Assembly (NCBI RefSeq): GCF_000711875.1
Contig: NZ_JONM01000001.1
Location: forward strand, 163,934-227,933
DNA: 64,000 nucleotides
Direction: 5' to 3'
DNA from: Andreprevotia chitinilytica DSM 18519
GTDB taxonomy: Bacteria; Pseudomonadota; Gammaproteobacteria; Burkholderiales; Chitinibacteraceae
Shown: one piece after another, positions 11,044-57,784 of the stretch
Layout: each line of letters starts with the position of its first letter
Numbering within the stretch: the stretch's first letter is position 1
Translations under genes and position numbers: made by a program
The notes under the pieces: generated by a model
The model's database searches: none
What the model was told of the DNA's origin: nothing
Seen by the model: the letters and a program-made list of their open reading frames with translations, nothing else

Positions 11044-11051
11044 GGCGTGAT

Positions 11052-41984: not shown

Positions 41985-42266
41985 TCAGAGATCGTGCGGC
42001 ACCGCGGCGTTGGCAAAGCGAACCAGGCTTTCAGTTTGGGCCTGTGGAGTGACGTTGGCGCTCGATTGCGTCGGCACGATCGCGCTGCCGATGAACTGGA
42101 CCAGGCCTTCCGACGAATTTTGGGTCGTGGTGGCTTTGACCGAGTTGGCCGTTGCAGCGTGTTGGCCGTTTTGCAGCTGGAAGTTTTCACCCAGCGCACC
42201 GGCTTGAGCTGCGCCCATGGCGCCCAGGAAACCAACGGTAGCGATAACAGTAGCAAGCTTTTTCAT
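41985..42266 (-). CDS. small secreted peptide, copy 1 (93 aa; signal MKKLATVIATVGFLGAMGAAQA)
   Basis: ATG after AAAGGA RBS; first ~60 aa and ~140-nt upstream leader identical to copy at 45392. Confidence 0.6.
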   Translation of the reverse strand: MKKLATVIATVGFLGAMGAAQAGALGENFQLQNGQHAATANSVKATTTQNSSEGLVQFIGSAIVPTQSSANVTPQAQTESLVRFANAAVPHDL

Positions 42267-42620
42267 GATGATGATCCTTTCTGTCTTGTGGTCAGAGCGC
42301 GTGATGCCGAGATGAGAGGCGGTTGGCCGTTGACTTGGCATCACGTGAAGGATGTCGTTCGGTTGTGTTGCAATGCGACATCGATGGACGTACTTTATTG
42401 GCATTCGTTTGGTTGATAAATGGTGGATATGTAGATGATTTAATTCCTTGATATTGATAATAATGTGGTTGTTGACTATTGACTTTGCTATTATTTTCTA
42501 TGTTTGTAATTATTTGTTGGCAGTTGGAAAGATGGTGTAGTGACGTCAACGTGTCAGTACCGTCGCCGCGCCGACGCAGTGCCGATCAGCGACGACTTCG
42601 AAAGAACGAAACATGGATGG

Positions 42621-43547
42621 ATGAACGGAATGGATAGCTTACTCAGCATGCGGGTTTTCAATCAGGTCGTGACCAACGGCAGTTTTGTCGGTGCGGCGGA
42701 TCGGCTTGGCATGTCCACTGCCATGGTCAGCAAACACATCAAGCATCTGGAAAGCAAACTGGGCATCCGGCTGTTGAACCGCACCACGCGTGCGCTCAGT
42801 CTCACCGGGCCGGGCGGGGTGTATTTCGAGCGTTGCCAGCATGTGCTGGCAGATCTGGACGAGCTGGAACACGCGGTCGGCCAGTCCACCATCAAGCCGC
42901 GTGGCACGCTCAAGGTCAGCGTGCCAGTCACCTTTGCGGTGAACTACCTCTGCCCGGTGCTCGCCGACTATTACGCCCGCTATCCGGAAATGAAGGTTGA
43001 TCTGCAATTGTCGGATCGGGTGATCGATCTGGTCGACGAAGGCATCGATCTGGGCATCCGTATCTCGGCTGATCCCAACCCGTCGCTGGTGGCGCGGCGG
43101 CTCAGCCCGATCCGCTTCGTGATGGTGGCGTCGCCCGAATACCTGGAGCGCAACGGCACGCCGCAGACGCCGGACGATCTGGTCGATCACTCCTGCATTA
43201 CTTATGCCTATTCCAACAACGGTACGGCCTGGAGTTTCACCGGGCCGGATGGCGCCATTACCGTGAACATCCAGCCCAAGCTGCGGGTGAACAACGGCGA
43301 AATGGCCGCAAAGGCCGCGCTGGCAGGCTTGGGGCTGACGATTCAGCCGCTGATCCTCACCCAGCAATATCTGAAAAGTGGTGAACTGGTGCCAATCTTG
43401 CAGGACTTTCCGCGTCCTGAAGTCTGGGTGTATGCCGTTTACCCGAATCGCAGCTATCTACCGGCTAAAACACGGGCCTTCATCGATCTGCTGGTCGAAC
43501 ACTTTGGCGAAACGCCGCCGTGGGGCAATACCGGCGGCTGCTGTTAG
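42621..43547 (+). CDS. LysR-family transcriptional regulator
   Basis: HTH SLLSMRVFNQVVTNGSFVGAADRLGMSTAMVSKHIKHLESKLG. Confidence 0.85.
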   Translation: MNGMDSLLSMRVFNQVVTNGSFVGAADRLGMSTAMVSKHIKHLESKLGIRLLNRTTRALSLTGPGGVYFERCQHVLADLDELEHAVGQSTIKPRGTLKVSVPVTFAVNYLCPVLADYYARYPEMKVDLQLSDRVIDLVDEGIDLGIRISADPNPSLVARRLSPIRFVMVASPEYLERNGTPQTPDDLVDHSCITYAYSNNGTAWSFTGPDGAITVNIQPKLRVNNGEMAAKAALAGLGLTIQPLILTQQYLKSGELVPILQDFPRPEVWVYAVYPNRSYLPAKTRAFIDLLVEHFGETPPWGNTGGCC

Positions 43548-43985: not shown

Positions 43986-44966
43986 GTGGACACGCTACGC
44001 CTGATGTTGTTTGGCCATCTGGCCGCAAGCCTGGGCCGGCCGCTGGCAGAGCGGCAGGTCAAGTTGCCGTATTCCTTGGGGGCACTGCTCGCCTTGCTGG
44101 TGCTCGCACGCGGCAAACTGGTCGCGCGCAGTGTGCTGGCGGCGCAGCTCTGGAGCGAGCGTGCCGGAGATGCCAGCGGTAGCCTGAATACGGCCCTGTG
44201 GCGTTTGCGCAAACTGGTGGAACCTGCGCCGATGCTGGCGGGGTCGGTGATCAAGTCCAACTCGCGCGGCGATGTCGGCTTCAATTTCGACGGGCCGTGC
44301 TGGGTGGATATCGACATCTTCGAAAGCCAGCTCGGCCGCCTGCTCAACAAACCGATCCACAAGCTGGATGTGGCCGAGATCGCTGAACTGAACGATGCGC
44401 TTGAACTCTACCGCGCCGACGTGCTGGCCAATTATCAGGAAGACTGGGCCTTGCGCGAGCGCGAGCGGATGCGGCGGTTGTACCTTGATGCGCTTGGCCG
44501 GCTGGTCGAATACGCCACCGTCCGCACCGAATACGCCTGCGGTATCCGCTATGCCCACCGTATTCTCGATGCCGATCCGCTGCGCGAGGATGTACACCGC
44601 GATCTGATGCGGCTGTATATGCAGAACGGCCAGCGTGCGCTGGCTTTGCGCCAGTTCGAAGCTTGTCGTGACTTGCTGCGGCACGAGCTGGCAATCCCGC
44701 CGATGGCGGAAACGATCCAGCTGTATCGCCGCATCGCTGATGAAACAGCCAACGCTGCCGTCAAGCCAGCGCCGCCTGCTGCGGTTCCGCCCTCCACGGA
44801 CGTGGAACCCGCCTCGGATGCGTTTCCAACCGACGACCCGCTCGTGCTGCGTGCGCAGCTGCAGCAACAGCTGGTGCAGGTACGCGAATCGCTGCGCGTG
44901 GCAGAAGGCAGGATTGCGCAGAGTTTGCTGTTGCTGGAGAAGAAGGCCGGAAGCGCGCCTTTCTAG
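43986..44966 (+). CDS. SARP-family regulator (OmpR-type winged helix + BTAD domain)
   Basis: GTG start chosen (MDTLRLMLFGHL..); AfsR/DnrI/RedD-like layout with BTAD helices (ELYRADVLANYQEDWALRERERMRRLYLDALGRL). Confidence 0.65.
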   Translation: MDTLRLMLFGHLAASLGRPLAERQVKLPYSLGALLALLVLARGKLVARSVLAAQLWSERAGDASGSLNTALWRLRKLVEPAPMLAGSVIKSNSRGDVGFNFDGPCWVDIDIFESQLGRLLNKPIHKLDVAEIAELNDALELYRADVLANYQEDWALRERERMRRLYLDALGRLVEYATVRTEYACGIRYAHRILDADPLREDVHRDLMRLYMQNGQRALALRQFEACRDLLRHELAIPPMAETIQLYRRIADETANAAVKPAPPAAVPPSTDVEPASDAFPTDDPLVLRAQLQQQLVQVRESLRVAEGRIAQSLLLLEKKAGSAPF

Positions 44967-44984
44967 GTGCCAACCATGCCCTGT

Positions 44985-45058
44985 TGTAGGAGCGAGCTTG
45001 CTCGCGATGGCAATGGTGGATGACACGATGCAATCGCGAGCAAGCTCGCTCCTACAGA
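44985..45058. repeat. REP-like palindrome, family D
   Basis: ttgtaggagcgagcttgctcgcgatgg..atcgcgagcaagctcgctcctacag. Confidence 0.65.
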
Positions 45059-45082
45059 GGCAGCGGTGGTGTCACCCTTTGC

Positions 45083-45162
45083 CACACCTCACACCTCACA
45101 CCTCACACCTCACACCTCACACCTCACACCTCACACCTCACACCTCACACCTCACACCTCAC
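45083..45162. repeat. tandem heptanucleotide microsatellite (CACCTCA)n, ~11 copies
   Basis: perfect head-to-tail repeats read directly. Confidence 0.9.
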
Positions 45163-45391
45163 ATTCCCCCAAGGCCAACGCGGAAACATCGTTGTAATTA
45201 TCAATAAATAAGAATCAAATAATCTACAAATTGATTATTTTTTTGCGAAGCGTGTGTGGCTAAAGTACGTCCATCGATGTCGCATTGCAACACAACCGAA
45301 CGACATCCTTCACGTGATGCCAAGTCAACGGCCAACCGCCTCTCATCTCGGCATCACGCGCTCTGACCACAAGACAGAAAGGATCATCATC

Positions 45392-45595
45392 ATGAAAAAG
45401 CTTGCTACTGTTATCGCTACCGTTGGTTTCCTGGGCGCCATGGGCGCAGCTCAAGCCGGTGCGCTGGGTGAAAACTTCCAGCTGCAAAACGGCCAACACG
45501 CTGCAACGGCCAACTCGGTCAAAGCCACCACGACCCAAAATTCGTCGGAAGGCCTGGTCCAGTTCATCGGCAGCGCCGTGGTGCCGAACCGCTAA
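45392..45595 (+). CDS. small secreted peptide, copy 2 (67 aa)
   Basis: identical leader/RBS/first 60 aa to 41985..42266 in inverted orientation. Confidence 0.6.
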   Translation: MKKLATVIATVGFLGAMGAAQAGALGENFQLQNGQHAATANSVKATTTQNSSEGLVQFIGSAVVPNR

Positions 45596-45639
45596 GGAAA
45601 CGGCATCACGCCGCTTCACCAACGCACTTCCTCGCAAAA

Positions 45640-45672
45640 AAGGCCGACTCGTTCGGCCTTTTTTGTTGCTCG
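45640..45672 (+). terminator. rho-independent terminator
   Basis: aaaaaggccgactcgttcggcctttttt. Confidence 0.75.
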
Positions 45673-45942
45673 CTCGCTGTATTCCATACACGGCCACCCT
45701 CGGCCGCAACAGTATCCGGGCTACTTCCCCCGTCACTTCTCGCCCACATTCTCAGTAACTGTCGAATGCATACGTGATTCGACAGTGATGGCTGCCATTT
45801 TCTATCTGAAAACTTACATATGTGTGATGTTGTGGTGATCGTGATGTGAGCAGACTGTGACAGTGCCCGCACATACTTCCGTCAGACAAAGACTGAAAGT
45901 GGGGTGCCTGTCGGCACAGGTAACCCGGCAAGCGAGCTCGGG

Positions 45943-46206
45943 ATGGCAAAGCGTCTGCAAGACCAAACGGCGGTGTTCATCGTGCGGATCTGGTGCGAGG
46001 AGCGCGAAATCGAAAATGCCGCCGGTGAATGGCGTGGCGTTGTCGAGCATGTGCGTTCCAATCAGCGCATGTTTTTCCGCACGCTGGAAGGTATGTCGGC
46101 CTTCATGCAGCCCTTTCTTGAGGAAGTCGGCATCGCGCCGCAGGACCGCTGGTGGGAAGGGGTGGAAGACAGCCTTTCGCTGCCGCCGGGCGAGCAGGTG
46201 GAGTGA
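45943..46206 (+). CDS. hypothetical small protein (first gene of protease-rich cluster)
   Basis: ATG 45943 inside GTG ORF 45904..46206. Confidence 0.4.
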   Translation: MAKRLQDQTAVFIVRIWCEEREIENAAGEWRGVVEHVRSNQRMFFRTLEGMSAFMQPFLEEVGIAPQDRWWEGVEDSLSLPPGEQVE

Positions 46207-46224
46207 TCGCAAGTCATTGAATGA

Positions 46225-49200
46225 ATGACTGTTGCCCAGCAGGAGATTGGCATGGCACTGATTCGCGCAAACCGGGAAACGGTTGATGACCGTTTCTCCA
46301 TCGTCGGCTTCACCGTCCGCACCGGGCCCAATCCTCTGTTCGAGGTAGCGGTCGCCAGCGACCCGGAGCTGTTCAAGCCCGAAAACCGTGCCAAGCGCGG
46401 TCGCAACAATTTCTATTCCAGCCGGGCCGCCGGTGCGATGCGCGCCCGCCGTGGCGAGGCGGTCTATCTGATTCCGCCCGATGTGCTCACGCATTTCGTG
46501 GGGAACAAGCGGCTTTACTTCGGTTTGGCGACCTATGCGGAAGGCAATCGCGCCGAGCCGACCTCGGTACAGGCCCCCACCACCGGTAGTCCGTTCATCA
46601 ATATCGCCGGGCTGACTGGCCGTGGCCTGCGGCGTTTGACATCGAGCCCGACCGACGTGTCGTCGAGTTACGGCGCAGCACGCGGTGAAGATTCCAGTCT
46701 GGCTTGGGGCGGTGATCGGGGTGGTGCCCAAGGCGGCAATGTCCCCACAACGGCGAGCCCCGATACACGTCGTGCAGCGGCAGATGGCCGGGCTGCGCAG
46801 AGCCCCGCCAATGGCGCAGTCAACGGCAGCTCCGCGGTCAACGGCCATACGGCGAGCAGCGCCGCGTCTCGTACCACACCGTCCGCGCCCGACGCGCACT
46901 ACGACGATGGCTTCGATCATCGGCTCTGGCAACAAGCACCGCAGCAAGCACCGCAACAGTCACCAACCCAGCAAGCGCCAGCCCCGGCCCCGACCGCTTC
47001 GGCCCCGGCTGCGCCAACGGCAAGTTCGTCCGCACCTGGGCCGGCTCACGCGCAAAGCCTTGCCTATAACGGCAAGCCCACCGCCCGGCCGCTTGATCTG
47101 ATCGTGCCGTCCAACCAGCCAACATTGTGGGATCAGCTCGGTTTCCTGCGCGATAGCTTGTCCTGGTTCTTCGGCGTCACCGACACCACCGTCTACCCGC
47201 AACACGCCATCTGCCAGATTCGCCGGCCGACGGCGGGCGGGGGGGATGAGCATGTCGGCACGGCGTTCTATGTTGGCCGCAATCGCTTGCTGACCGCCGC
47301 GCACGTGGTCGAGGGCGAAACCAATCTGATCGTCGTGCCCGGCCGCAACGACACCGCCGAGCCCTTCGGTCGCTATACCGTTGCCGCCAGCAGTTTCCGC
47401 ATTCCGGCCAGCCGCAACACCGCCAACCACGATTTCGATATCGCCGTGCTGGACAACACGCCGCAGGCCGCGCCGAACGGTCGTTGGTTCGATTTGATGG
47501 AAGAGCTGCTCACCTCGCAGCCCAGCCCGATCATCGTTTGCGGCTATTCATCGCAATCGCGCCGCGTGCCGCAGATCAACAACCTGATCAACGAAAACAA
47601 GCAGCACCTGCATTCCGGCCGCATCCAGACCGTGCAGGACAACACCTTTTCCTACGATATCCAGACGCTGGCCGGGGCCAGTGGCGCGCCGGTGTACTAC
47701 ATCACCGACAACGGCGGCCAGCCGCAAATCCACCTCGTTGGCGTGCACGTCAGCGGCCTATCCGATACCGAAAACCAAGGCACGCGCCTGACTGAAGCCA
47801 AGATCGCCTGGATCGAAGGCCGCACCACCACGCTTGGGCTGGCAACGGCTCGTGCGCAAAGCATTCCGCTTGATCCCGGCGCGGGCGGCCAGTCGATCGG
47901 CGTAGCCGCGCTGCAGGCCGGCGACATCATCGTGTCCACCACCGACCACGCCACGTCGTACCTGATCCGTGGCGGCAGCATCTCGGCGGTTAGCCACGCC
48001 ATGCTTTATATCGGTGACGGCAAGGTGGTCGAAGCAGTCGGGCAGGGCGTGATCGAGCATCCGCTGGCCGATGCGATCAGCGATGCCATCCTCGCCGTGG
48101 CCTTCCGCTATCCGAATCTGGACGATATGCATCGCCAAGCCGTCGTCAGCTATGCCCGCAGCCAGGTCGGCTTGCCCTACAACTACGCCGGCGCAGCCTA
48201 TGCCGGTTACCGCATCTGGAACCCGATTACCCGCATTGGCGAATGGATCGGCCAGCGGCTGTCGGTTGCGCCGGAAAACGCCGGTTCGTTCTATTGCTCG
48301 CAACTGGTGCTGGAAGCTTATGCCCGTGCCGGCGTGGCCCTCACCACCGAAGCGCCGGATGTCAGCACGCCGGGCGATATCGTCCAGCTCACGCATAGCG
48401 TGCTGAGCTATGTCGGCCATCTGGTCGCCAGCGATTCGTCGTTCGCACTGGCGCTTGCTACCACCGATCCCATCCAACCCAGCCCCTACCGTCGGCGCAT
48501 TCGCCACCCGGCCAGAGCATTGGATGACAGCTCGTTCCGTGTGTATTGGGGCGATGTGCCGTTCCAGCAGCAAAGCAGCACTGGCTCGTGCTGGGCGGCG
48601 GCGGCGGCCATGATCGTCGGTTGGCGCGACAGCACCTGCATCAGCGATCAGGACATTGCTGCCAAGGTGCCGGTGGTGGATGCCTACCTCAATGGCCTGT
48701 GGCCACAGGATCGGCATGTGCTGGCGGATGTGTGGAATCTGGTGGCCGAGCCGCCACAGTCGTACACGCTCGATGGCTTCCGGCAGTTGCTCGCCAACAG
48801 CGGCCCGCTGTGGGTCGCCACCCGCACCCGCTCCGGCGGCGGTCACATCCTGCTGGTCATCGGGATGGAAAGCGATGGCGCGGCGGATGGCTCCGATACC
48901 AATGTGCTGATCTATGATCCGTGGCCCGGCTCGGCGGGTCGCCAGCGCATGCGTTGGCTTGACTTCATCACCCGTTATGAAGGCCGTGCCACCAGCACAG
49001 GTGGCGTGATGCAACCCCAGATCCTGCACGCCGACGGCACGCAGGGCCGCCAGCAAGCGACGGCCGCACCATTCGGGCTGGTCTCGGCGCTGGGCACGCC
49101 GTTCTCGGTGTTCTGGAGCGATGTGCCGTACACGGCGCAGACCAGTGGTATGTCGTGCTGGGCGGCTTCGGCTTCGATGGTGGTGGGCTGGCGTGACCGG

Positions 49201-50283
49201 ATTTCGATCAGTGATCAGGATATTGCCGCCAAGGTGCCGGCCATCGATGCCTACCGCAACGGCCTGTGGCCGCGTGACCGGCAACCGCTGGCGGATGTGT
49301 GGAACCTGATTCCCGAGCCGCCGCAAAGCTACACGCTGGATGGTTTCCGGCAATTGCTCGCCAGCAGCGGCCCGCTGTGGGTCGATTCGCAATTTCCACA
49401 AGGCGGGCACGTGGTCGTGGTGGTCGGGATCGAAAGCGGCGGGGCGGATGATGGTTCCGATACCACCGTCTACATCCATAACCCCGATCCCGGCTCTGGC
49501 CAGCGGGTGAAGATGTCGTGGCAGCAATTCGTGCAGTACTACGAAGGCCGCGTCAGTACCGAAGGCAGCACGCTCAGCGCGCAATTGCTCCATGCCAACG
49601 GTTTGGGCGGTCGCACGCCGGCCACGGTGGCACCGTTCGCGCTCACGCTATCGGCCAATCAGGCCAATACGCTGGACAAGACCCGGCATCAGCGCACCCG
49701 TCCCGCTCGTCCCCAGCAAACGCCACAATCGCCCCAGCATGGCGGGGCGCGGGTCAACGGTTTGACGGCAGCGGGCTTGACGGTGAGCGGCACGGATGCT
49801 GAAACGACGATTTCGCCGTCCCACGTGCCCGGCACGACCATGAGTGCGGTGACCGGCAGCGTTGGCAACTTGTCCTGGCGGCTGGAGCAGTTGCAGGGCT
49901 TCAAATCGCCAGCCGGCCAGCCGAGTGTCACCTCCGCCGCGCCGGATCACGCCGAAGTCCCGCTCGACGATTGGCCGCGCCTGTCCGATGGCCCGGTGCC
50001 GATCAAATTGGCAGTGCGCTGGCAGCACAACGGCAGCGCGCTCGGCAATGTCACGGTCGTGCGCACCGATCAGGCCGACAGCCTGCCGTACCAGCTGCAG
50101 GTGGAAGCCGCCATCGACGACGACACGCTGACCTATCCGCCGCAAGCCCCGCGCTATGCCGCGCTGAACGTGACCATCACCTACCGCTTCAGCAACCTGC
50201 CGGATGGCGCGGCGACTGCCGTCACGCAGCTCAAGCTGTATGGCAACGGCACGTTCGAACGCCACGGTTCCTGGCTGAAATAG
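46225..50283 (+). CDS. 1352-aa multi-domain protease
   Basis: Layout: N-terminal domain, P/A/Q linker, trypsin-like S1 (TAAHVV; GASGAPVYY), permuted papain/NlpC-like module (SFYCSQLVLEAY), two C39-like Cys-peptidase repeats (TGSCWAAAAAMIVGWRD; SGMSCWAASASMVVGWRD), C-terminal domain. Confidence 0.75.
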   Translation: MTVAQQEIGMALIRANRETVDDRFSIVGFTVRTGPNPLFEVAVASDPELFKPENRAKRGRNNFYSSRAAGAMRARRGEAVYLIPPDVLTHFVGNKRLYFGLATYAEGNRAEPTSVQAPTTGSPFINIAGLTGRGLRRLTSSPTDVSSSYGAARGEDSSLAWGGDRGGAQGGNVPTTASPDTRRAAADGRAAQSPANGAVNGSSAVNGHTASSAASRTTPSAPDAHYDDGFDHRLWQQAPQQAPQQSPTQQAPAPAPTASAPAAPTASSSAPGPAHAQSLAYNGKPTARPLDLIVPSNQPTLWDQLGFLRDSLSWFFGVTDTTVYPQHAICQIRRPTAGGGDEHVGTAFYVGRNRLLTAAHVVEGETNLIVVPGRNDTAEPFGRYTVAASSFRIPASRNTANHDFDIAVLDNTPQAAPNGRWFDLMEELLTSQPSPIIVCGYSSQSRRVPQINNLINENKQHLHSGRIQTVQDNTFSYDIQTLAGASGAPVYYITDNGGQPQIHLVGVHVSGLSDTENQGTRLTEAKIAWIEGRTTTLGLATARAQSIPLDPGAGGQSIGVAALQAGDIIVSTTDHATSYLIRGGSISAVSHAMLYIGDGKVVEAVGQGVIEHPLADAISDAILAVAFRYPNLDDMHRQAVVSYARSQVGLPYNYAGAAYAGYRIWNPITRIGEWIGQRLSVAPENAGSFYCSQLVLEAYARAGVALTTEAPDVSTPGDIVQLTHSVLSYVGHLVASDSSFALALATTDPIQPSPYRRRIRHPARALDDSSFRVYWGDVPFQQQSSTGSCWAAAAAMIVGWRDSTCISDQDIAAKVPVVDAYLNGLWPQDRHVLADVWNLVAEPPQSYTLDGFRQLLANSGPLWVATRTRSGGGHILLVIGMESDGAADGSDTNVLIYDPWPGSAGRQRMRWLDFITRYEGRATSTGGVMQPQILHADGTQGRQQATAAPFGLVSALGTPFSVFWSDVPYTAQTSGMSCWAASASMVVGWRDRISISDQDIAAKVPAIDAYRNGLWPRDRQPLADVWNLIPEPPQSYTLDGFRQLLASSGPLWVDSQFPQGGHVVVVVGIESGGADDGSDTTVYIHNPDPGSGQRVKMSWQQFVQYYEGRVSTEGSTLSAQLLHANGLGGRTPATVAPFALTLSANQANTLDKTRHQRTRPARPQQTPQSPQHGGARVNGLTAAGLTVSGTDAETTISPSHVPGTTMSAVTGSVGNLSWRLEQLQGFKSPAGQPSVTSAAPDHAEVPLDDWPRLSDGPVPIKLAVRWQHNGSALGNVTVVRTDQADSLPYQLQVEAAIDDDTLTYPPQAPRYAALNVTITYRFSNLPDGAATAVTQLKLYGNGTFERHGSWLK

Positions 50284-50304: not shown

Positions 50305-51423
50305 ATGAACCCGCGCCTCGTCCCGCCGCCACCACCCACCCAGGGTGGAGCGGCGACTGCGCAAGCCTTGAACGCCGTCGACATGCTGTCCCAGCGTCTG
50401 GGCGGCAGCCAGAGCGACGGCAGTAACAGCGCAGCTGCGCCAACGCCGAGCCCCGCAGCACCCGTACCCGCGCCGGCACCGACGCCAGCCACCACCACCT
50501 CGCCCAAGCAGCCGGCCACGGAAACCATCGCCCACCGCACTGGCGCAATGGTCAACGAGATCGATTTCCCCGGCTTTGTGGCCGGTCTGGTGCATGGCAC
50601 TTTCGATGCCATCGTCGATGCCTCGATCCGGCAGATGGAAAGCTTCTCCGGCCTGGTGTCGGCGGTCGCCAAGACCGTCGACCAGTTCACCGAGGAAAAC
50701 GTCACGCTCAATCAGGCGCGGGACTGGCTCACCAGCCACTATCCCGGCGACGTGCATCTGGTGCTGTCCAGCGACCCGGCCATCGGCCCGCAACTGGCTC
50801 CGGCGCGAGAAGGCTTGTCCCCGGCGTGGCTAGCGGACTTCGATCTCGAAGGGAACGAACTCACTACTGAGCTGTTGGAGAACCAGTTGCTGCCTATCGT
50901 GCGCAGCCGCACCGGTGCGGATCGCCAACAACTGCTGGCAACGATGGTGCTGCTCGGCATGAACCGCGTGGCGGTCAAGGATGGTTCGATTTCGGCCAAG
51001 GTGATGTTCCGCGCCAGTGCGGAGGATTCCGCCAAGGTGTCCTACGCCACCAGCAACGACCCGCAAGGCGTCGCCAATTGGGGCGAGCGGGGCAGCCTGT
51101 CTTATAGCGGCGGCGCCAGCACGATGGTGTCCACCCTGGGTGTGAACGCGCAGAACGATTCATCGATCAAGACCGATCTGCTGGGCGAAGTGAAGATCAA
51201 TTTCGTCAGCGAAACCTTGCCGCTCGACCGCCTGATGGATCAAGCCAAGATCGCGCTGCTGCAACGCAATTCCCGCGTGGCGGAAACCGCCAACCGGGGT
51301 TTGAATGCGCCTGCCCCAGCCGCCGCGCCAGCACCACAAGCCGCATTGCCACCGGCCGCTGCGCCGGTCGCAACACCGACCGCCCCGGCCCCCGCCGCAG
51401 TACATGAAGGGAGGCCAGCCTGA
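50305..51423 (+). CDS. unknown family, paralog A (372 aa): conserved helical core + beta segment + Pro/Ala-rich tail
   Basis: shares FPxFVxGL(I/V)xG(V/T)FxxIVx(S/A)SIxQMExxxxLV, RQQLLATMV(M/L)LGxNR(I/V)(V/A)VxDGxIxAKV, E(V/I)(K/R)(I/V)NF(K/V)S(D/E)(Y/T)LP(L/M) with 57983, 59369, 61717 genes. Confidence 0.7.
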   Translation: MNPRLVPPPPPTQGGAATAQALNAVDMLSQRLGGSQSDGSNSAAAPTPSPAAPVPAPAPTPATTTSPKQPATETIAHRTGAMVNEIDFPGFVAGLVHGTFDAIVDASIRQMESFSGLVSAVAKTVDQFTEENVTLNQARDWLTSHYPGDVHLVLSSDPAIGPQLAPAREGLSPAWLADFDLEGNELTTELLENQLLPIVRSRTGADRQQLLATMVLLGMNRVAVKDGSISAKVMFRASAEDSAKVSYATSNDPQGVANWGERGSLSYSGGASTMVSTLGVNAQNDSSIKTDLLGEVKINFVSETLPLDRLMDQAKIALLQRNSRVAETANRGLNAPAPAAAPAPQAALPPAAAPVATPTAPAPAAVHEGRPA

Positions 51424-51860
51424 TGATCCGCGAACTCTCCGCCGTGCTGCTGGAAATGCACAACGCGCTGCAGTCGGAACTCAACCTGGCTCGCGACGCT
51501 GGCGTGCCGCTGTTGCTCGATAGCGTCGAGCTGACCTTGCCGATGCAATTCCAGAACGTGTTTGCCGATGGCCAATGCCTGCTGTGCGCCGACGTGCCGC
51601 GCACGCTCGATCCGGGGGGCTTTGATTTGCCGCTGGGGCGGATGCATGCGCGGTGGGAGCGGGTGGATGGGGAAGATGAGGATTCAACACCCAGCTTGGG
51701 CATTCCCCCCTTCCTCGAAGGGGGGGGAGGGGGGATTTCTGCGCCTTCTCAAGTTGCCACTGCATCTGAACTTGGCACTGTGTCGAAATCCCCCCCACCC
51801 CCCTTCACAAAGGGGGGAGTAACAACGTTCGCTCCAGCAAGGAGGCCCGGCCATGAGTAA
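51423..51860 (+). CDS. hypothetical protein; 3' third of ORF is occupied by a REP/MITE copy
   Basis: ATGA overlap with upstream gene; REP family B 51703..51830 lies inside ORF so true C-terminus uncertain. Confidence 0.4.
   Translation: MIRELSAVLLEMHNALQSELNLARDAGVPLLLDSVELTLPMQFQNVFADGQCLLCADVPRTLDPGGFDLPLGRMHARWERVDGEDEDSTPSLGIPPFLEGGGGGISAPSQVATASELGTVSKSPPPPFTKGGVTTFAPARRPGHE
51703..51830. repeat. REP/MITE-like element, family B (second copy of 27468..27565)
   Basis: ccccccttcctcgaaggggggg ; ggggggatttct..gcgcc..tcgaaatccccccc. Confidence 0.6.
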
Positions 51861-52794
51861 TGCCATCCCTCCACTGTTGCAGCAACAAGGCGTGCCGTTC
51901 GATGTCTTCATCCAGTCGCTGACCGATCAGCTCGACAAGGCGCAGGCGTCGATGGCGCTCAAGGCGCGGGTCGGCAAGTTGCCGCTCACCTTCGCGGTCA
52001 AGGAATTGACGCTCGATCTGAAGGCCTATGTGCAGATCGTCGATGACGACATCTATTTCCGCCCGGCAGCACCCGGTGATACCGATGCCAGCACCGTCAA
52101 ATTCAGCCTCACCACCATCACCAAGCCGATGATCGAAGAGAACTCGGTCGATTTCGCCGCGCAGCAAAAGCACTTCGATGTCAGTCTCAAGGACGGGCTG
52201 GGCGACAGCATCAATGCCGATGAGCAACGCCGGCTGGAGCGCATGGGCGTGCAGACGATGTCGCAGCTCAATGATTTGCGCAGCCGCGCCGGCGATGACG
52301 TGATCGCCCGCATCACGCGCGTGCCGGTCAATCGCCTGCAAGCCGCATTGATGCGCGCCGCCGCGCCGCAGGTCATGCATGTCGAACCACACCTCAATGC
52401 GCCGAGCGGGGATGCGGCGATGGCGCCTGGCAATGGCCAACTCAATGGTTCATTGATGGGTTCCTCGGTGGGTCCAATGGTCTCTGCCAACCTTAACCCG
52501 CAATCCGTGCCGCCGAATTCGCCGCTGTTGCGTTTGCGTGGCCTCAATTTGCTGCGGGGCGGGCGGCCGCCGCAGGTGCAAGCCGCAGGCGGCAATGTGC
52601 CCGTGCTGGCCGCCAGCGACAGCGAATTGCTGATCTCGCCGCATGCCATGCAACTGGGCTGCGAAGCGGAGCTGACCTTTGATGACGGCGCACGCTGCAC
52701 GGCGCAGTTGCCGCCGCCGGTCCCGCCGCCGATCATTCAGCCCTCGGCACAAAGTCGCCCGCAATCCCCGTCACAGGGGGCTCGCCATGTTTAG
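51853..52794 (+). CDS. hypothetical protein (313 aa), Pro-rich C-terminus
   Basis: ATG 51853 (overlaps previous ORF end by 8 nt); overlapped at 3' end by S8 gene start. Confidence 0.5.
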   Translation: MSNAIPPLLQQQGVPFDVFIQSLTDQLDKAQASMALKARVGKLPLTFAVKELTLDLKAYVQIVDDDIYFRPAAPGDTDASTVKFSLTTITKPMIEENSVDFAAQQKHFDVSLKDGLGDSINADEQRRLERMGVQTMSQLNDLRSRAGDDVIARITRVPVNRLQAALMRAAAPQVMHVEPHLNAPSGDAAMAPGNGQLNGSLMGSSVGPMVSANLNPQSVPPNSPLLRLRGLNLLRGGRPPQVQAAGGNVPVLAASDSELLISPHAMQLGCEAELTFDDGARCTAQLPPPVPPPIIQPSAQSRPQSPSQGARHV

Positions 52795-54328
52795 CGACTA
52801 CGTGCCTTTTGACCCGATGCCCGAAGGCGGCCCGCACTTTGGCGGGCGGATGCGTCGCCGCCTGTTGCTGCGGCTGCCGCTGGGCGAAGTGCCGGATCAT
52901 CTGCCGACGTTCTCTGACTGCCTGCGCCGCATGACCAGCTTTGCCGACACCATCGATGGCGGCGTGGTCGACCGGCTGATCCGCCACCATTGCGGCGGGG
53001 CGCGCACCTGCCGGCTGCACAGTGCCGCGCGTTATGCCGGCTCCCACCTGCGTGTGCCGATGCCCGCACGGGCTTACGACGATCTCGAAATGCTGAGCGG
53101 TGTAGCGCGGGTGTTGCGGCTGGAATTGCAATCGGATGACGGATTCGAGGCGCTGGTCGATGCGCTGCGCCAGCTCGCCAGCGTGGAAGACGTCTCGCCC
53201 AACTATCTCTGCACGCTGTCGCTGGAAGTGCCGCAAGCCGCACCAGACACCCTGCGTGACGATGCCGGCTGGAGCACGCGCCGCATGATCCGCACTGCGG
53301 AAGCGCTCGGCTACGAGCCGGGCGATGAGGGCGTCATTGTCGGGCTGCTCGATACCGGCGTGGCCCAGCAACATCGCGAACTGGCCGGCAAGCTGCGGCG
53401 CGGCTTCGATGCCGTTGCGCTCGATGCCAGCGCCGTTGGCGGCGATTTGCGCCTGATCGGCCCGCATCACCCGGACAACGAGCCGGACGATGATGTCGGC
53501 CACGGCACCGGCTGCGCCGGCATCATCGGCGCATTGGGCGACAGCATGCCGCCGGGGTTGGCCGGGCAGAGCACCTTGCTACCCGTGCGCGTGCTGGGCA
53601 CGGCCGTTGGCAAGAACCACAAACCGGTCGGTATCGGCTCGATTGCCGATATCGATCGCGGCATGAAACGGCTGATCGATCTGGGCGCCAAGGTGATCAA
53701 CATGAGTTTTGGCACGCCGGAATCGATGCTGGGTGAACACGACCCGCCGCCGCATACCGAAGTGGTCAATTACGGCTTGGCACGCGGCTGCATCCTGGTG
53801 GCGGCCAGCGGTAATTCCGGCGCGACGGAGCGCTTTTTCCCGGCCGCACACCCCGGTGTGATCGCTGTCGGTGCCGTCGATGCCGATGGCCGGTTGAGCC
53901 ACTTCTCCACCCGTGGCGAGCACGTGGCGCTATGCGCACCGGGGGAGCGGATCGAGACCAGCGGGATCGTGGTCGTGGAGAGCGGCAACGCGGTTGGCGG
54001 CAGTCAAGACAGTGCACCGGTCTACCAATGGGCCACCGGCACCAGCTTTGCCGCGCCCTTTGTCACGGCGACGGCCGCGTTACTGGTGGCCCGCGCCGCT
54101 CGCCGCGCCTTGCCGCTCGACCCGGCTACCGCCCGCGATGTCCTCATCCGCTCGACCCGTCCCTTCGCGACTACCACCGATGGGGCCGGCAATGGCGTGC
54201 TCGATGCGCTGGCTGCGTTGCGTTTGCTCGATGACCAGCTCGATACGCTGCTGGATGAGGACGATGTGACGTGGGAAGACGTCGCGTCGCCAACGCCGGA
54301 TGAGAAAGGAGGGCGGCCCAATGTTTGA
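52787..54328 (+). CDS. subtilisin-like S8 serine peptidase with ~190-aa N-terminal extension
   Basis: ATG 52787; catalytic Asp LLDTGV, His GHGTGCAGII, Ser GTSFAAPFV. Confidence 0.85.
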   Translation: MFSDYVPFDPMPEGGPHFGGRMRRRLLLRLPLGEVPDHLPTFSDCLRRMTSFADTIDGGVVDRLIRHHCGGARTCRLHSAARYAGSHLRVPMPARAYDDLEMLSGVARVLRLELQSDDGFEALVDALRQLASVEDVSPNYLCTLSLEVPQAAPDTLRDDAGWSTRRMIRTAEALGYEPGDEGVIVGLLDTGVAQQHRELAGKLRRGFDAVALDASAVGGDLRLIGPHHPDNEPDDDVGHGTGCAGIIGALGDSMPPGLAGQSTLLPVRVLGTAVGKNHKPVGIGSIADIDRGMKRLIDLGAKVINMSFGTPESMLGEHDPPPHTEVVNYGLARGCILVAASGNSGATERFFPAAHPGVIAVGAVDADGRLSHFSTRGEHVALCAPGERIETSGIVVVESGNAVGGSQDSAPVYQWATGTSFAAPFVTATAALLVARAARRALPLDPATARDVLIRSTRPFATTTDGAGNGVLDALAALRLLDDQLDTLLDEDDVTWEDVASPTPDEKGGRPNV

Positions 54329-54349
54329 TTGCCGTGCCATCCGCAACCC

Positions 54350-54380
54350 CGTAGCCCGGACGACGCCGTCGGCCGGGGTT
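54350..54380. repeat. REP family C half-site
   Basis: cgtagcccggacgacgccgtcggccgggg. Confidence 0.45.
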
Positions 54381-54430
54381 TGCGCCACCAATCACGCCGC
54401 TGTACCTGCTGATATCGCCGGAGGTTCGTC

Positions 54431-56437
54431 ATGACCAACCCCAAAAAGAAACCGGGCGCAGACGCGGCAGAGAACACGCCGGCCAATGCCGATCCACCCT
54501 CCGCCGGGCCAGCGCCTCCAGCGGAACAGGTGCCCAGCGCGCCAGCCGCTGCAGCCAGTGCCACACCCGGCAGCAGCCAACCGAACGCCCCGCCCGGCGG
54601 GAAACCGCCGCCGGCAAGCCCGGCGGATCGCAGTAACAGCAATATGGAAACCCAAAGCGGTGGAGGGAATGGAATCATGGAAGCACCCAAACAAGTGTTG
54701 TTGTTCGTCGATCTGAGCCAGTCGGAATTTCTCGCCAGGGCGCGTTTGCGCGAGCGGCGGCAGCTGCTGGAGAACATTGCCACCCACCGCAAGGGCGGGT
54801 TGGGCAGCGATGAATCCGACGAATTGACGGAAAAGCGGTTGCTGCTGGGCAGCAATACCTCGGTCGATCCGTTCTTCCTCGCCATTGTGGACGGGCATGC
54901 CGGTTCGCAAGCCGAAGGCGAGAACGAAGCCAAGATGGTGCATGGCGTACTGCCGACTTCGCAGCCGCGCTGGTATCGCGAGCATCCGAACTGGAACGGC
55001 GAAATGATCCGGGTGCAAAACGGCCCCGATATCGCCGTGGCCGCGGCCGAGCTGGAACTGGTCGCGATTGCAGGCCTGATGGAGATGGACAACTTCCTTG
55101 ACCCGGCCAACCCGCGCTTCGTGCAGCAGGTTTCGGTGGCACAGGGGGAGTATCGCGCCAATCGGGCCTTGTTCCAGCGGGTGTTCGAGCTGCTGGTGCT
55201 CAACAGCGTGCCGGTGACGCTGGATAGCCAGATCGCGCTCAAGCTGGTCGATCCGGCCGCGACGGATGCGTTGCACAACGCCAATATCACTGCCGATATG
55301 CTCAAAGCAGTGATTGCGCTCAGCGCCAAGCAACTGGGGGCGGTGGTGCGGCAGATCGCCGCCGATGGCATGACCGCCAACGACCGCCAGTTGCCGGATC
55401 GCGTGCGGGTGGCGCTGGAGAACGTCTCCGGCATGGACCAGGGCGCGCCGCCGTCGGCGATCGAAATCGATTTGCCCGATCTGGAAGCCCAGTCGGACGT
55501 CGAGATCGTCGAATCCAATCTGCATGCGGTGCAGGCGCTGTATTTCTCCTACATGCTCGAAGAGCTGCGGCTGTTCCAGACGGTGGAGAAACTGGTCGAT
55601 CTGTTCCGTACCGGCATGCTGCCGATCGGCAAGGGCGGCGCGGGCGATTACCTCTACAGCTACCTGAAGCGTTCCAGCGAGCGGATGAACGAGAGCGAGC
55701 GGCGCGATCTGTATATGCGGGCCTTCGGTGCGCCCGGCGGCGATCCGAACACCAATATGCCCAATCGCGAGTTCAACGAGCTGTGGCTGCGTTTCGTCTC
55801 GGCCGTGTCGTCCTATGTGCGTCAGTTCACCGTCGACAACATGCTGCGCAGCCAGGCGCCCGGCATGGTCAGTCAGGAACAGGTACGCAAGGCCGGCCGC
55901 GATCTGGCCGCCAATCTGTCCTTGCACGGCTACGGCATCGCCTACTTCGCCGCCACCGAGCTGCAATCGACCATCCGCGAGTTCATCGGTGTGCTGTCGG
56001 ATCAGGACATCAAGGGCTCGTTCGGCGCCCGCGATATGTGGCAGGTGGTCGAGCAAGTCTCTGCCAGCTACCTGGGCGGCCCGCGCAACAGCGTGCGTTA
56101 CCGCACGCAGGCCCAGTCCGGCGCGGTGATCATCCGCTGGCTGGCCAAGAACGCCCGCAATCTGTCGTCCAGCTATGTGAACGACGTGATCGCCATCGAC
56201 GTGCTGCGCAGCCCGCAGCTACGCAGCCTCGGCGGCGGCAAGGCGACGGTGGACCCGACCGATTGGGATCTCGTCAACGCTTGCGAGCAATGGCTGGCCG
56301 TGGGCGGCATCCAGGAGGCGCGCATCGACGAGTACTCGCAGCCGACCGAAGCGCCGAATACCACCTCGAAGCCGATTGCCTTGCCATCGGTCGCGCAGGA
56401 TGTGCTCGATTCGGTGGGGATCAGTATTGGGGCGTAG
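54431..56437 (+). CDS. hypothetical protein (668 aa) with Pro/Ala-rich low-complexity N-terminus
   Basis: ATG 54431; no recognisable motif. Confidence 0.55.
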   Translation: MTNPKKKPGADAAENTPANADPPSAGPAPPAEQVPSAPAAAASATPGSSQPNAPPGGKPPPASPADRSNSNMETQSGGGNGIMEAPKQVLLFVDLSQSEFLARARLRERRQLLENIATHRKGGLGSDESDELTEKRLLLGSNTSVDPFFLAIVDGHAGSQAEGENEAKMVHGVLPTSQPRWYREHPNWNGEMIRVQNGPDIAVAAAELELVAIAGLMEMDNFLDPANPRFVQQVSVAQGEYRANRALFQRVFELLVLNSVPVTLDSQIALKLVDPAATDALHNANITADMLKAVIALSAKQLGAVVRQIAADGMTANDRQLPDRVRVALENVSGMDQGAPPSAIEIDLPDLEAQSDVEIVESNLHAVQALYFSYMLEELRLFQTVEKLVDLFRTGMLPIGKGGAGDYLYSYLKRSSERMNESERRDLYMRAFGAPGGDPNTNMPNREFNELWLRFVSAVSSYVRQFTVDNMLRSQAPGMVSQEQVRKAGRDLAANLSLHGYGIAYFAATELQSTIREFIGVLSDQDIKGSFGARDMWQVVEQVSASYLGGPRNSVRYRTQAQSGAVIIRWLAKNARNLSSSYVNDVIAIDVLRSPQLRSLGGGKATVDPTDWDLVNACEQWLAVGGIQEARIDEYSQPTEAPNTTSKPIALPSVAQDVLDSVGISIGA

Positions 56438-56467
56438 AGGGCCGCAACGAGACCGTGAACAGGCTCT

Positions 56468-56575
56468 TAGTCCCCTCGCCCCCTTTAGGGGGAGAGGGTT
56501 AGGGAGAGGGGGCGGTTGATCAACCAGCCACCCTCACCCCCAGCCCCTTTCCCAAAAATGGGCGAGGGGAGAAAA
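56468..56575. repeat. REP cluster family A (two copies)
   Basis: tcccctcgccccctttagggggagaggg ... ccctttcccaaaaatgggcgaggggag. Confidence 0.55.
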
Positions 56576-56606
56576 GCAGGATCGGCGGCTCACAGGAGAC
56601 TCAGCC

Positions 56607-57659: not shown

Positions 57660-57784
57660 GCGGGCAACGGCAAAACCGCAAATCCTGAACCACAGAGGGC
57701 ACAGAGGTTCACAGAGAAAACCAACCTCAAATCACACGTAAGAACAAGGAGCGTGCGCAGAGAGCGGATGAAAAACGAGGTTTT

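What the first reader, a model, noticed from the sequence alone, without database searches (positions are those of the whole stretch)
45083..45162. Perfect (CACCTCA)x~11 heptanucleotide microsatellite between the SARP gene and peptide copy 2
The microsatellite is a candidate slipped-strand phase-variation site. Its length is not a multiple of 3 per unit, so copy-number changes alter spacing and reading frame. It lies ~20 bp downstream of a REP element, inside ORFs of doubtful coding value. Because it sits in the promoter-distal region of the duplicated peptide gene, copy-number variation could modulate expression or SARP binding. SARPs recognise direct heptameric repeats, although normally at 11-bp spacing.
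Basis: partly seen in the sequence, partly recalled or inferred. Interest (0 to 1): 0.5.

Follow-up and report, generated by a model that had tools for sequence, protein, structure and literature searches.

The report
Heptanucleotide microsatellite made of SARP-box-like units
A perfect 11.6-copy 7-bp DNA repeat sits in non-coding DNA beside a SARP regulator gene in Andreprevotia chitinilytica; each unit resembles that regulator's recognition motif at the wrong spacing, so it is probably a slippage-prone repeat with at most a weak tuning role, not a gene on/off switch.

Summary
Window 45083-45163 is a perfect (CACACCT)x11.6 tract, by far the strongest tandem repeat in the 64 kb.

It is intergenic, so the reading-frame argument does not apply. 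It lies 117 bp after the SARP stop codon, 26 bp after a REP hairpin and 229 bp before the ATG of peptide copy 2.

The window is Andreprevotia chitinilytica, known from a single genome. The locus is an orphan, so copy-number polymorphism could not be tested.

SARP homologues at 44-50% identity revealed a conserved module: SARP, then a small protein, then a giant multi-peptidase. Its promoter is textbook SARP: four GTGA(T/G/C)NN heptamers at an exact 11-bp period, 8 bp, then a -10-like hexamer. The window has this operator at 45824-45877, about 660 bp downstream of the tract.

Read on the minus strand, each unit (GGTGTGAGGTG) scores like a genuine box. Only 0.4-0.8% of all heptamer arrays score as well. 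However, the boxes are at 7-bp phase, point the wrong way, have no -10 after them, and no homologous locus carries such a tract.

Best reading: a lineage-specific, slippage-generated microsatellite that grew from a box-like heptamer. It may be a weak, variable SARP decoy or auxiliary site. A neutral VNTR is nearly as likely.

The parts
45083..45163 (.). Perfect heptanucleotide microsatellite (CACACCT)x11.6. On the minus strand it reads (GTGAGGT)n, with 11-mer register GGTGTGAGGTG.
   Evidence: TRF score 162, 100% match. Unique in the window. No single-strand structure on either strand. The unit scores 7.8 bits on the direct-box PWM and 11.1 bits on the inverted-box PWM.
43986..44966 (+). AfsR/SARP-family regulator gene (326 aa by NCBI's start; other possible starts at 43887 and 44004).
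   Evidence: Pfam BTAD 7e-23 and Trans_reg_C 7.7e-6. Identical to WP_156970496.1 of Andreprevotia chitinilytica. Next-best homologue is only 52% identical.
44985..45056 (.). REP-type palindrome (28-nt arms), 19 bp after the SARP stop codon and 26 bp before the tract.
   Evidence: Inverted repeat I3, 96% complementary. The same element occurs at 20095-20155 and 57790-57853. It dominates the predicted RNA fold. No U-run follows it.
45197..45260 (+). AT-rich stretch, partly similar to the region upstream of peptide copy 1. Likely promoter region of peptide copy 2; promoter not mapped.
   Evidence: Alignment of the two copies. A -10-like TAAAGT at 45261-45266 is shared by both copies (read from the sequence; inference).
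45261..45576 (+). 316-bp block 100% identical to 42082-42397 on the minus strand: leader plus the first 185 nt (61 codons plus 2 nt) of the peptide gene.
45392..45595 (+). Peptide copy 2 (67 aa) with a Sec-type signal-peptide-like N-terminus (MKKLATVIATVGFLGAMGAAQA).
   Evidence: Identical to WP_035051720.1, a hypothetical protein of A. chitinilytica. No Pfam family. The only related protein in 5.8 billion sequences is its own paralogue.
45636..45664 (+). Terminator-like hairpin with a T-run after peptide copy 2. It is homologous to the one after copy 1.
   Evidence: D5/I2; sequence.
45824..45867 (+). Canonical SARP operator: GTGATGT, GTGATCG, GTGAGCA and GTGACAG at an exact 11-bp period.
   Evidence: The only 3x GTGA-at-11-bp site in the 64 kb. 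Same architecture in L128, L129, L132, L133, L134, L135 and L136.
45872..45877 (+). -10-like hexamer CATACT, 8 bp after the last heptamer.
   Evidence: Aligned with CACAGT/CAGAGT/CAGGCT/CAGACT/CAGCGT at the same offset in six homologous loci and TAGCCT in L136.
45943..46206 (+). Conserved small protein (87 aa, FIVRIWCE...EWRG.VEH motif), first gene of the SARP-controlled operon.
   Evidence: 47-51% identity to the small genes that follow the SARP homologues. No Pfam family.
46225..50283 (+). Giant multi-peptidase (Trypsin_2, Peptidase_C92, 2x Peptidase_C70/AvrRpt2-like).
   Evidence: Pfam. Syntenic with peptidases of 1273-1940 aa (1609-1940 where a small gene intervenes) downstream of SARP homologues.
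45311..45360 (.). Convergent pair of strong box-like sites in the peptide leader: CACGTGATGCC on the plus strand and CGCGTGATGCC on the minus strand. Duplicated at 42298-42347.
   Evidence: PWM scores of 12.2 and 15.0 bits. They pair as a stem in the predicted RNA fold.
45602..45612 (-). Strong isolated box-like site GGCGTGATGCC just after the peptide-2 stop codon. Its context CATCACGCCGCTTCAC resembles the inverted boxes of L129.
   Evidence: 14.2 bits; compared with L129.
41985..42266 (-). Peptide copy 1 (93 aa). It has no microsatellite upstream and a divergent LysR gene at 42540..43547.

Best explanation
The tract is a lineage-specific, slippage-generated heptanucleotide microsatellite in non-coding DNA. 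It lies inside the regulatory spacer of a conserved module: SARP, then a small protein, then a multi-peptidase. In this strain a REP element and a secreted-peptide gene cassette have also lodged in that spacer.

Each unit, read on the minus strand (GGTGTGAGGTG), is a credible copy of the GTGA(T/G)G heptamer box that this SARP subfamily recognises. It has the orientation of the 'inverted' boxes that homologous loci carry upstream of their operators. The tract therefore most likely grew by replication slippage from a box-like heptamer.

A perfect 81-bp tract should gain and lose 7-bp units at high frequency. It cannot shift a reading frame.

Any effect would act at the DNA level. The tract presents a variable number (now about 11) of off-phase SARP half-sites, with units i and i+3 being 21 bp (two helical turns) apart. 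These sit about 100 bp upstream of the probable peptide-2 promoter. The tract would then be a weak decoy or auxiliary SARP site that tunes expression gradually. It is not the operator and not an on/off switch.

Shown: existence, perfection, intergenic position, box-likeness of the unit, the canonical operator elsewhere, and absence of the tract from homologues. Inferred: slippage origin, hypermutability, SARP binding and any regulatory effect.
For: - Perfect 11.6-copy tract, an outlier in the window.
- Intergenic position.
- Box motif defined independently from six homologous loci: four GTGA heptamers at 11 bp, then 8 bp, then a -10-like hexamer. The same is seen in L136 and in the window at 45824-45877.
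- The tract unit scores 7.8 bits on the 24-site direct-box PWM (training range 7.6-14.9). Only 126 of 16384 heptamer arrays (0.77%) do as well.
- It scores 11.1 bits on the 14-site inverted-box PWM (range 7.3-14.5). Only 70 of 16384 (0.43%) do as well.
- The exact heptamer GTGAGGT is the fourth box of L132. TCACACCTC (L132) and TCACACCT (L133) occur in their inverted-box regions.
- The strong inverted boxes of L128 and L129 are 21 bp apart, which equals 3 units.
- Three of the 18 sites scoring 12 bits or more in the 64 kb lie within 45311-45612, so the whole spacer is box-rich.
- Decoy arrays are known to titrate activators, including OmpR-family regulators (PMC3322331, PMC8599769).
Against: - Phasing is 7 bp, not the 11 bp strictly kept in all eight loci. 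SARP monomers bind cooperatively to heptamers with 4-nt spacers, at least two monomers are needed, and even a 3-nt spacer is worse (PMC5930380). Adjacent units overlap sterically.
- The boxes point toward the 3' end of the SARP gene, and no -10-like hexamer follows the last unit (read).
- No homologous locus has a 7-bp tract, so it is not a conserved part of the system.
- The PWM is unspecific at this score, with 159 other hits of 7.5 bits or more in the window.
- The resemblance was noticed after looking, and common ancestry would explain it without any function.
- There are no polymorphism, binding or expression data.
Confidence: 0.45

Rival explanations
1. Neutral VNTR. The tract is an ordinary hypervariable intergenic microsatellite with no regulatory consequence. 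Its likeness to the SARP box is coincidence, or only a trace of the sequence it expanded from.
For: - It is absent from all homologous loci, and the locus is an orphan found in one genome.
- The same (CACACCT)n repeat occurs in at least 120 unrelated metagenome contigs and 5 viral contigs of every GC content, with up to 18 copies. None is related to this locus.
- It is off-phase for SARP binding (PMC5930380).
- It lies about 100 bp or more from any plausible -10.
Against: - The box-likeness is unlikely by chance (0.4-0.8% of heptamers).
- The tract sits exactly in the SARP's own regulatory spacer.
- A tract with no point mutations in 81 bp implies recent or ongoing turnover, which fits either view.
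Confidence: 0.35
2. Spacing-type phase variation of peptide copy 2. Unit gains and losses would change the distance or helical phase between an upstream element and the peptide-2 promoter, or change the length of a transcribed leader, and so modulate transcription.
For: - The tract lies directly upstream of the AT-rich promoter-like region of a signal-peptide-bearing gene.
- Precedents exist. H. influenzae hmw1A/hmw2A carry (TGAAAGA)13-38 at 69-106 bp upstream, and this modulates transcription (PMC2651432). The meningococcal nadA TAAA tract changes the spacing of distal promoter elements and NadR operators (PMC2791445).
- Seven bp equals a 240-degree rotation, so three phase states are possible.
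Against: - No binding site was identified to the left of the tract whose phasing could matter. Only a REP hairpin and the end of the SARP gene lie there.
- The tract is not between -35 and -10. It ends 97 bp before the shared TAAAGT and 229 bp before the ATG.
- No promoter-like site was found upstream of it on the plus strand.
- Copy 1, which has the identical leader, functions without any tract.
Confidence: 0.12
3. RNA-level element. If transcribed on the plus strand, the tract gives 11 unstructured CACCUC (anti-Shine-Dalgarno-like) repeats. On the minus strand it gives 11 GAGGUG (Shine-Dalgarno-like) repeats. Either could sequester ribosome-binding sites or 30S subunits.
For: - The tract is completely unstructured as a single strand.
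- The REP hairpin after the SARP gene has no U-run, so read-through is possible.
- One weak minus-strand promoter-like site at 45262-45234 points into the tract.
Against: - The promoter-like count is no higher than in shuffles (1 versus 0.8).
- No Rfam family matches the tract.
- The tract is not conserved in homologous loci.
- The peptide's own SD (AAAGGA) is not complementary to the repeat.
- The similarity to the 16S 3' end rests on general knowledge and was not checked for this organism.
Confidence: 0.04
4. Canonical SARP-dependent promoter or operator, or an assembly artefact.
For: The heptamer is box-like. Short-read assemblies can miscount repeats, and the Logan assembly of run SRR1588405 breaks in the adjacent REP.
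Against: - Three of four defining features of a SARP operator are not met: 11-bp phase, 8 bp to a -10, and orientation toward a gene.
- An 81-bp perfect tract inside a 610-kb contig is within read length and has unique flanks. An artefact would alter the copy number, not create the tract.
Confidence: 0.04

Closest known systems
Haemophilus influenzae hmw1A/hmw2A upstream heptanucleotide SSR, (TGAAAGA/ATCTTTC)n
   Same: It has a 7-nt unit and 13-38 perfect copies. It is intergenic, upstream of a gene for an exported protein, and acts on transcription level rather than reading frame (PMC2651432, citing Dawid et al. 1999).
   Different: The hmw tracts lie 69-106 bp from the ATG within the promoter/leader, are AT-rich, and are shown to vary among strains and to change expression. 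Here the tract is 229 bp from the ATG, C-rich, of unknown variability, and its unit resembles an activator's box.
Neisseria meningitidis nadA TAAA tract (NadR/IHF distal-element spacing)
   Same: It is an SSR upstream of the core promoter whose length alters regulator-dependent transcription (PMC2791445).
   Different: In nadA, defined NadR operators flank the tract and the unit is not itself a binding site. Here no flanking operator was found on the left, and the unit itself is box-like.
SARP operators (heptameric direct repeats at 11-bp spacing, overlapping -35)
   Same: The tract has a heptameric unit with the GTGA(T/G)G core used by this SARP subfamily. It sits next to the SARP gene and inside its regulatory spacer.
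   Different: The period is 7 bp instead of 11 bp, the orientation is opposite, and no -10 lies 8 bp downstream. It has 11 copies instead of 2-4. The real operator is at 45824-45877 (PMC5930380).
Repeated decoy transcription-factor sites
   Same: These are tandem arrays of activator sites that could sequester the activator and reshape the dose-response (PMC3322331; bacterial OmpR-family example in PMC8599769).
   Different: Those are synthetic arrays or dispersed genomic sites with proper site geometry. No natural bacterial microsatellite decoy is documented in the papers found here, and binding is untested.
Intergenic heptamer arrays of unknown role (TAACTGA repeats in Beggiatoaceae, cyanobacteria and Bacteroidetes; cyanobacterial STRR)
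   Same: They are tandem heptanucleotide repeats in intergenic DNA, in arrays of up to tens of copies (PMC4679880; STRR from general knowledge).
   Different: Those occur at many loci per genome, mostly a few nucleotides before start codons. Here there is a single locus in 64 kb, far from any start codon.
E. coli K1 neuO poly-psi heptanucleotide tract
   Same: It is a heptanucleotide SSR that slips (PMC9659370).
   Different: The neuO tract is inside the ORF and works by frameshift. The present tract is non-coding.

Membership tests
SSR contingency locus (phase-variable simple sequence repeat) | Long, uninterrupted tandem tract of short units. | tested here: met
   11.6 perfect copies of 7 nt, TRF score 162.
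SSR contingency locus (phase-variable simple sequence repeat) | Tract lies inside an ORF or inside/adjacent to a core promoter or operator, so that unit changes switch expression. | tested here: inconclusive
   Not in a credible ORF. Not between -35 and -10. It ends 97 bp before the shared -10-like TAAAGT and 229 bp before the ATG. The promoter is unmapped.
SSR contingency locus (phase-variable simple sequence repeat) | Tract length differs among strains or within a culture. | not testable with these tools
   Only one genome carries the locus. There is no orthologous locus in genome contigs, no flank match in metagenomes, and the only independent assembly breaks in the REP.
SSR contingency locus (phase-variable simple sequence repeat) | Several such loci per genome, typically at surface or secreted-protein genes. 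| tested here: inconclusive
   It is the only such tract in 64 kb. The neighbouring gene has a signal-peptide-like N-terminus (read). The rest of the genome was not available.
SARP operator / SARP-dependent promoter | Heptamer matching the regulator's box. | tested here: met
   7.8 and 11.1 bits on PWMs from homologous loci, reached by 0.77% and 0.43% of all heptamer arrays.
SARP operator / SARP-dependent promoter | Direct repeats at an 11-bp (or 22-bp) period on one face of the helix. | tested here: not met
   The period is 7 bp. All eight reference operators keep an exact 11 bp. Only every third unit (21 bp) returns to roughly the same face.
SARP operator / SARP-dependent promoter | 3'-most heptamer 8 bp upstream of a -10 element, reading toward a target gene. 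| tested here: not met
   On the minus strand the last unit is followed by GTGGCAAA and then GGGTGA, and it points into the REP and the SARP 3' end. The canonical site with CATACT is at 45824-45877.
SARP operator / SARP-dependent promoter | Conserved in orthologous or homologous loci. | tested here: not met
   No 7-bp tract in L128, L129, L132-L137.
Known structured RNA family | Match to an Rfam covariance model. | tested here: not met
   Only sub-threshold hairpin matches to the REP; nothing on the tract.

The most novel reading that the evidence does not exclude
The tract could be a natural variable-valency decoy: a hypermutable microsatellite built from its neighbouring activator's own recognition heptamer. 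Slippage would change the number of SARP half-sites. That would heritably but reversibly tune how much free SARP reaches the canonical operator of the small-protein/multi-peptidase operon, and perhaps the adjacent secreted-peptide gene. The result would be population heterogeneity in a secreted protease system of a soil chitin degrader.
Probability: 0.15. Interest if true: 0.75.

Novelty: new member of a known kind. Interest (0 to 1): 0.4.

Why it matters
SSR-driven variation is documented mainly in host-adapted pathogens. A functional example in an environmental chitinolytic betaproteobacterium, built from an activator's own box, would add a new way for microsatellites to tune a regulon: by titration rather than by frame or spacer length.

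Independently of the tract, the comparison defines the operator (GTGA(T/G)NN x4 at 11 bp, then 8 bp, then a -10) and the target of a SARP subfamily in Gram-negative bacteria. That target is a conserved, uncharacterised operon of a small protein plus a multi-peptidase. This makes both the regulator and the tract directly testable by EMSA and reporter assays.

If the tract proves neutral, it is simply a good VNTR marker.

Tried and rejected
- **Orthologous loci for copy-number comparison.** The search for related loci on genome contigs found only a 34%-identity Chloroflexi relative. Exact look-ups of peptide 2, P0001, LysR and P0121 found nothing. The metagenome scan with the right-flank junction gave 0 hits.
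- **Independent assembly.** The Logan contig from SRR1588405 carrying the SARP gene stops 45 nt after the stop codon, inside the REP.
- **Generic (CACACCT)x4 scans.** These gave 5 viral and at least 120 metagenome contigs with GC 26-73% and 3-18 copies. None is homologous to this locus by blastn or tblastx, so they say nothing about this locus.
- **Coding reading.** Rejected. The covering ORFs are out of frame with the SARP gene or start inside the REP, and the minus strand has TGA in every frame.
- **Structured RNA or DNA.** Rejected. The folding energy of both strands is 0 kcal/mol and Rfam finds nothing on the tract.
- **Sigma-70 promoter or terminator scan.** Not above chance.
- **Canonical SARP operator.** Rejected on phase, orientation and the missing -10.
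- **Origin as part of the peptide duplication.** Rejected. The duplicated segment starts at 45197 (exact identity from 45261), and copy 1 has no tract.
- **G-quadruplex, Z-DNA or curvature.** Considered from the sequence only: GG runs of 2, interrupted CA alternation, no A-tracts. No tool was available and nothing pointed to them.

Full report
**Observation.**
Reading the window shows an uninterrupted run of CACACCT from 45083 to 45163. Tandem Repeats Finder gives period 7, 11.6 copies, 100% matches, no indels and score 162. The next-best array in the 64 kb scores 58. A 14-mer of two units, with up to two mismatches, occurs only inside the tract: 10 matches against 0.32 expected, and none of 100 shuffles reached 10. 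The REP palindrome it mentions is also real, with arms at 44985-45012 and 45029-45056 that are 96% complementary. It ends 26 bp before the tract, and related copies lie at 20095-20155 and 57790-57853.

**Setting.**
- The upstream gene (stop at 44966) has the SARP architecture, Pfam BTAD 7e-23 plus Trans_reg_C.
- The downstream gene (ATG 45392, stop 45595) encodes a 67-aa protein with a Sec-type signal-peptide-like N-terminus and no Pfam family.
- The tract is therefore intergenic. It starts 117 bp after the SARP stop and ends 229 bp before the peptide ATG.
- The two mechanical ORFs that cover it are not credible. One overlaps the SARP gene out of frame and the other starts inside the REP.
- The plus strand is open in all frames (HTSHLTP repeats). 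The minus strand has TGA in all frames.
- Unit changes therefore cannot shift the frame of any real gene.
- The peptide gene is duplicated in inverted orientation. Its arms are 42071-42461 and 45197-45587, with 316 bp (45261-45576) 100% identical.
- The tract lies 34 bp outside the duplicated segment. Copy 1 has no tract and instead faces a divergent LysR gene.
- Both strands of the tract have zero predicted single-strand structure, and Rfam finds nothing on it.
- The promoter and terminator scan is at chance level.

**Source and comparability.**
Peptide 2, peptide 1, the SARP, the DUF1565 protein and the large peptidase are all identical to proteins of Andreprevotia chitinilytica, each seen on a single 610,461-bp contig. 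The peptide has no other relative among 5.8 billion proteins. The SARP's best non-self hit is 52% identical. No orthologous locus was found in species-representative genomes or in metagenomes, where a flank-junction pattern gave 0 hits. The one independent assembly breaks in the REP. Copy-number polymorphism, the key test of the phase-variation idea, cannot be tested with the available data. The bare repeat (CACACCT)x4 or longer occurs in 5 viral and at least 120 metagenome contigs of all GC contents. None is related to this locus, so these hits only show that the heptamer expands readily in many genomes.

**What the comparison did reveal.**
- Loci of SARP homologues at 44-50% identity come from Marilutibacter, Lysobacter, Ideonella, Thiodictyon and metagenomes.
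- They share a gene order: SARP, then a small protein of 111-126 aa, then a giant multi-peptidase of 1609-1940 aa (Trypsin_2, Amidase_2, C92, C70).
- The Thiodictyon locus L136 lacks the small gene.
- The window has the same module. ORF 45943-46206 is 47-51% identical to the small proteins, and the 1352-aa peptidase follows.
- In front of the small gene, every homologous locus has four GTGA(T/G/C)NN heptamers at an exact 11-bp period.
- These are followed after 8 bp by a -10-like hexamer (CACAGT, CAGAGT, CAGGCT, CAGACT, CAGCGT), and preceded by one to three inverted boxes (TCAC) 20-43 bp upstream.
- L136 shows the same, with TAGCCT as the hexamer.
- This is the classical SARP promoter layout: heptamer plus 4-nt spacer equals 11 bp, on the same face, bound cooperatively (PMC5930380).
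- The window has it at 45824-45867 (GTGATGT, GTGATCG, GTGAGCA, GTGACAG), with CATACT at 45872-45877.
- That is the only site of three GTGA at an 11-bp period in the 64 kb.
- The four-box pattern occurs once in each of six homologous loci and in none of 129 unrelated loci.
- The SARP's canonical operator therefore lies about 660 bp downstream of the microsatellite and serves a different gene.
- The REP, the tract and the peptide-2 cassette sit inside what is normally a gene-free SARP-to-small-gene spacer (230-570 bp where the two genes are adjacent; L133 has Mla-like genes inserted).

**Relation of the tract to the box.**
- On the minus strand the tract reads (GTGAGGT)n, and its 11-mer register is GGTGTGAGGTG.
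- Against a PWM built from the 24 direct boxes of the homologues (the window was excluded), the unit scores 7.8 bits. The training range is 7.6-14.9, and 126 of all 16384 heptamer arrays (0.77%) do as well.
- Against a PWM of the 14 inverted boxes, it scores 11.1 bits. The range is 7.3-14.5, and 70 of 16384 arrays (0.43%) do as well.
- GTGAGGT is exactly the fourth box of L132.
- TCACACCTC and TCACACCT occur in the inverted-box regions of L132 and L133.
- The two strong inverted boxes of L128 and L129 are 21 bp apart, which equals three units.
- The spacer as a whole is box-rich. Three of the 18 sites in the window that score 12 bits or more lie at 45311, 45350 and 45602.
- The unit is therefore box-like beyond chance, and it has the orientation of the inverted boxes.
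- The other defining features of a SARP operator fail. The phase is 7 bp rather than 11 bp, the boxes point toward the SARP 3' end, and the last unit is followed by GTGGCAAA and then GGGTGA rather than by a -10.
- None of the eight homologous loci contains a 7-bp tract.
- Cooperative binding of SARP monomers needs the 4-nt spacer (PMC5930380), and adjacent units here overlap. Only non-cooperative occupancy, or occupancy of every third unit, is conceivable.

**Interpretation.**
The most economical account is that a box-like heptamer in the SARP regulatory spacer expanded by replication slippage in this lineage. A tract with no point substitution in 81 bp points to recent or continuing turnover. 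Tracts of this length and unit size are highly mutable in other bacteria (hmw in PMC2651432; nadA in PMC2791445; neuO in PMC9659370).

Its effect, if any, must be transcriptional. I favour a weak, copy-number-dependent interaction with the SARP, as a decoy or auxiliary site next to the peptide-2 promoter (decoy principle in PMC3322331 and PMC8599769), at confidence 0.45. This rests on sequence likeness alone.

The rivals are:
- A functionless VNTR is nearly as likely (0.35).
- A nadA/hmw-style spacing effect on peptide 2 (0.12) is weakened because no binding site was found to the left of the tract, and because copy 1 has the same leader without a tract.
- An RNA role is speculative (0.04). The plus-strand transcript would carry CACCUC anti-SD-like repeats and the minus-strand transcript GAGGUG SD-like repeats.
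- A canonical operator or an assembly artefact is unlikely (0.04).

**Comparison and novelty.**
By kind, this is an intergenic heptanucleotide SSR like the hmw tracts. It differs in position, composition and the box-like unit. It is not a SARP operator, because three of four defining features were tested and not met. I rate it a new member of a known kind, with interest 0.4. The more novel reading is a natural, hypermutable decoy made of an activator's own box. The evidence does not exclude it (probability about 0.15), and it would be notable if true.

**Main limitations.**
There is a single genome and no reads, RNA or binding data. The resemblance was found after the fact and was tested with a low-specificity motif.

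Noticed in passing
window 43986-50283; L128, L129, L132-L137: A conserved, uncharacterised module: SARP, then a small FIVRIWCE...EWRG.VEH protein with no Pfam family, then a giant multi-peptidase (Trypsin_2, Amidase_2/C92, C70 AvrRpt2-like). It occurs in Xanthomonadales, Burkholderiales and Chromatiales, usually with a divergent XRE/HTH_3 gene upstream. The window has a LysR gene there instead.
   Followed up: partly
window 45824-45877: A textbook SARP-dependent promoter in a Gram-negative bacterium: four GTGA heptamers at an 11-bp period, then 8 bp, then CATACT. It is conserved base-for-base in layout across eight loci. An extra pair, GTGATTC/GTGATGG, lies at about 45775-45792.
   Followed up: yes
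window 42082-42397 (-) and 45261-45576 (+): A 316-bp inverted duplication at 100% identity covers the leader and the first 61 codons of two small secreted-peptide genes. Their 3' ends differ (93 versus 67 aa), but their terminator hairpins are again homologous. This suggests recent gene conversion. The peptides have no relatives outside this genome.
   Followed up: partly
window 45311-45360 (duplicated at 42298-42347) and 45602-45620: Strong isolated SARP-box-like sites (12-15 bits). One is a convergent pair, GTGATGCC...GGCATCAC, in the peptide leader, which also forms a predicted RNA stem. Another, CATCACGCCGCTTCAC, lies right after the peptide-2 stop codon and closely resembles the inverted boxes of L129.
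   Followed up: partly
window 20095-20155, 26654-26671, 44985-45056, 57790-57853: A REP-type palindromic element (GGAGCGAGCTTGCTCGCG arms) is repeated in the window, at 7 matches versus 0.22 expected. From memory its sequence resembles Pseudomonas REPs, although the genome is Andreprevotia.
   Followed up: no
window 57691-57716 and 57888-57911: Short CACAGAGG-type 9-bp repeats lie in inverted orientation on either side of the REP at 57790-57853. This suggests a larger composite repeat element.
   Followed up: no
window 50305-57659: Downstream of the multi-peptidase lies a run of same-strand genes, mostly without Pfam families, plus a Peptidase_S8 subtilase (52679-54328). They may belong to the same SARP-controlled system.
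   Followed up: no
window 45078-45088 and 45248-45262: GCCACAC at the left edge of the tract is complementary to GTGTGGC just before the shared TAAAGT. In the predicted RNA fold the two pair and loop out the tract and the AT-rich region. This may be chance.
   Followed up: no
window 10001-12000 and 17001-18000: These stretches have lower GC (0.48-0.53) than the window average of about 0.61. They may be acquired DNA.
   Followed up: no
L129 7040-7075 and 7285-7320: In this homologous locus the SARP-to-small-gene spacer also carries inserted repeat elements (two copies of CAGCAG(A/G)TCCCTCGCCTGCGGC(T/C)CGGGATG(G/A)CAG). This spacer therefore seems to be a recurrent landing site for small repeats.
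   Followed up: no
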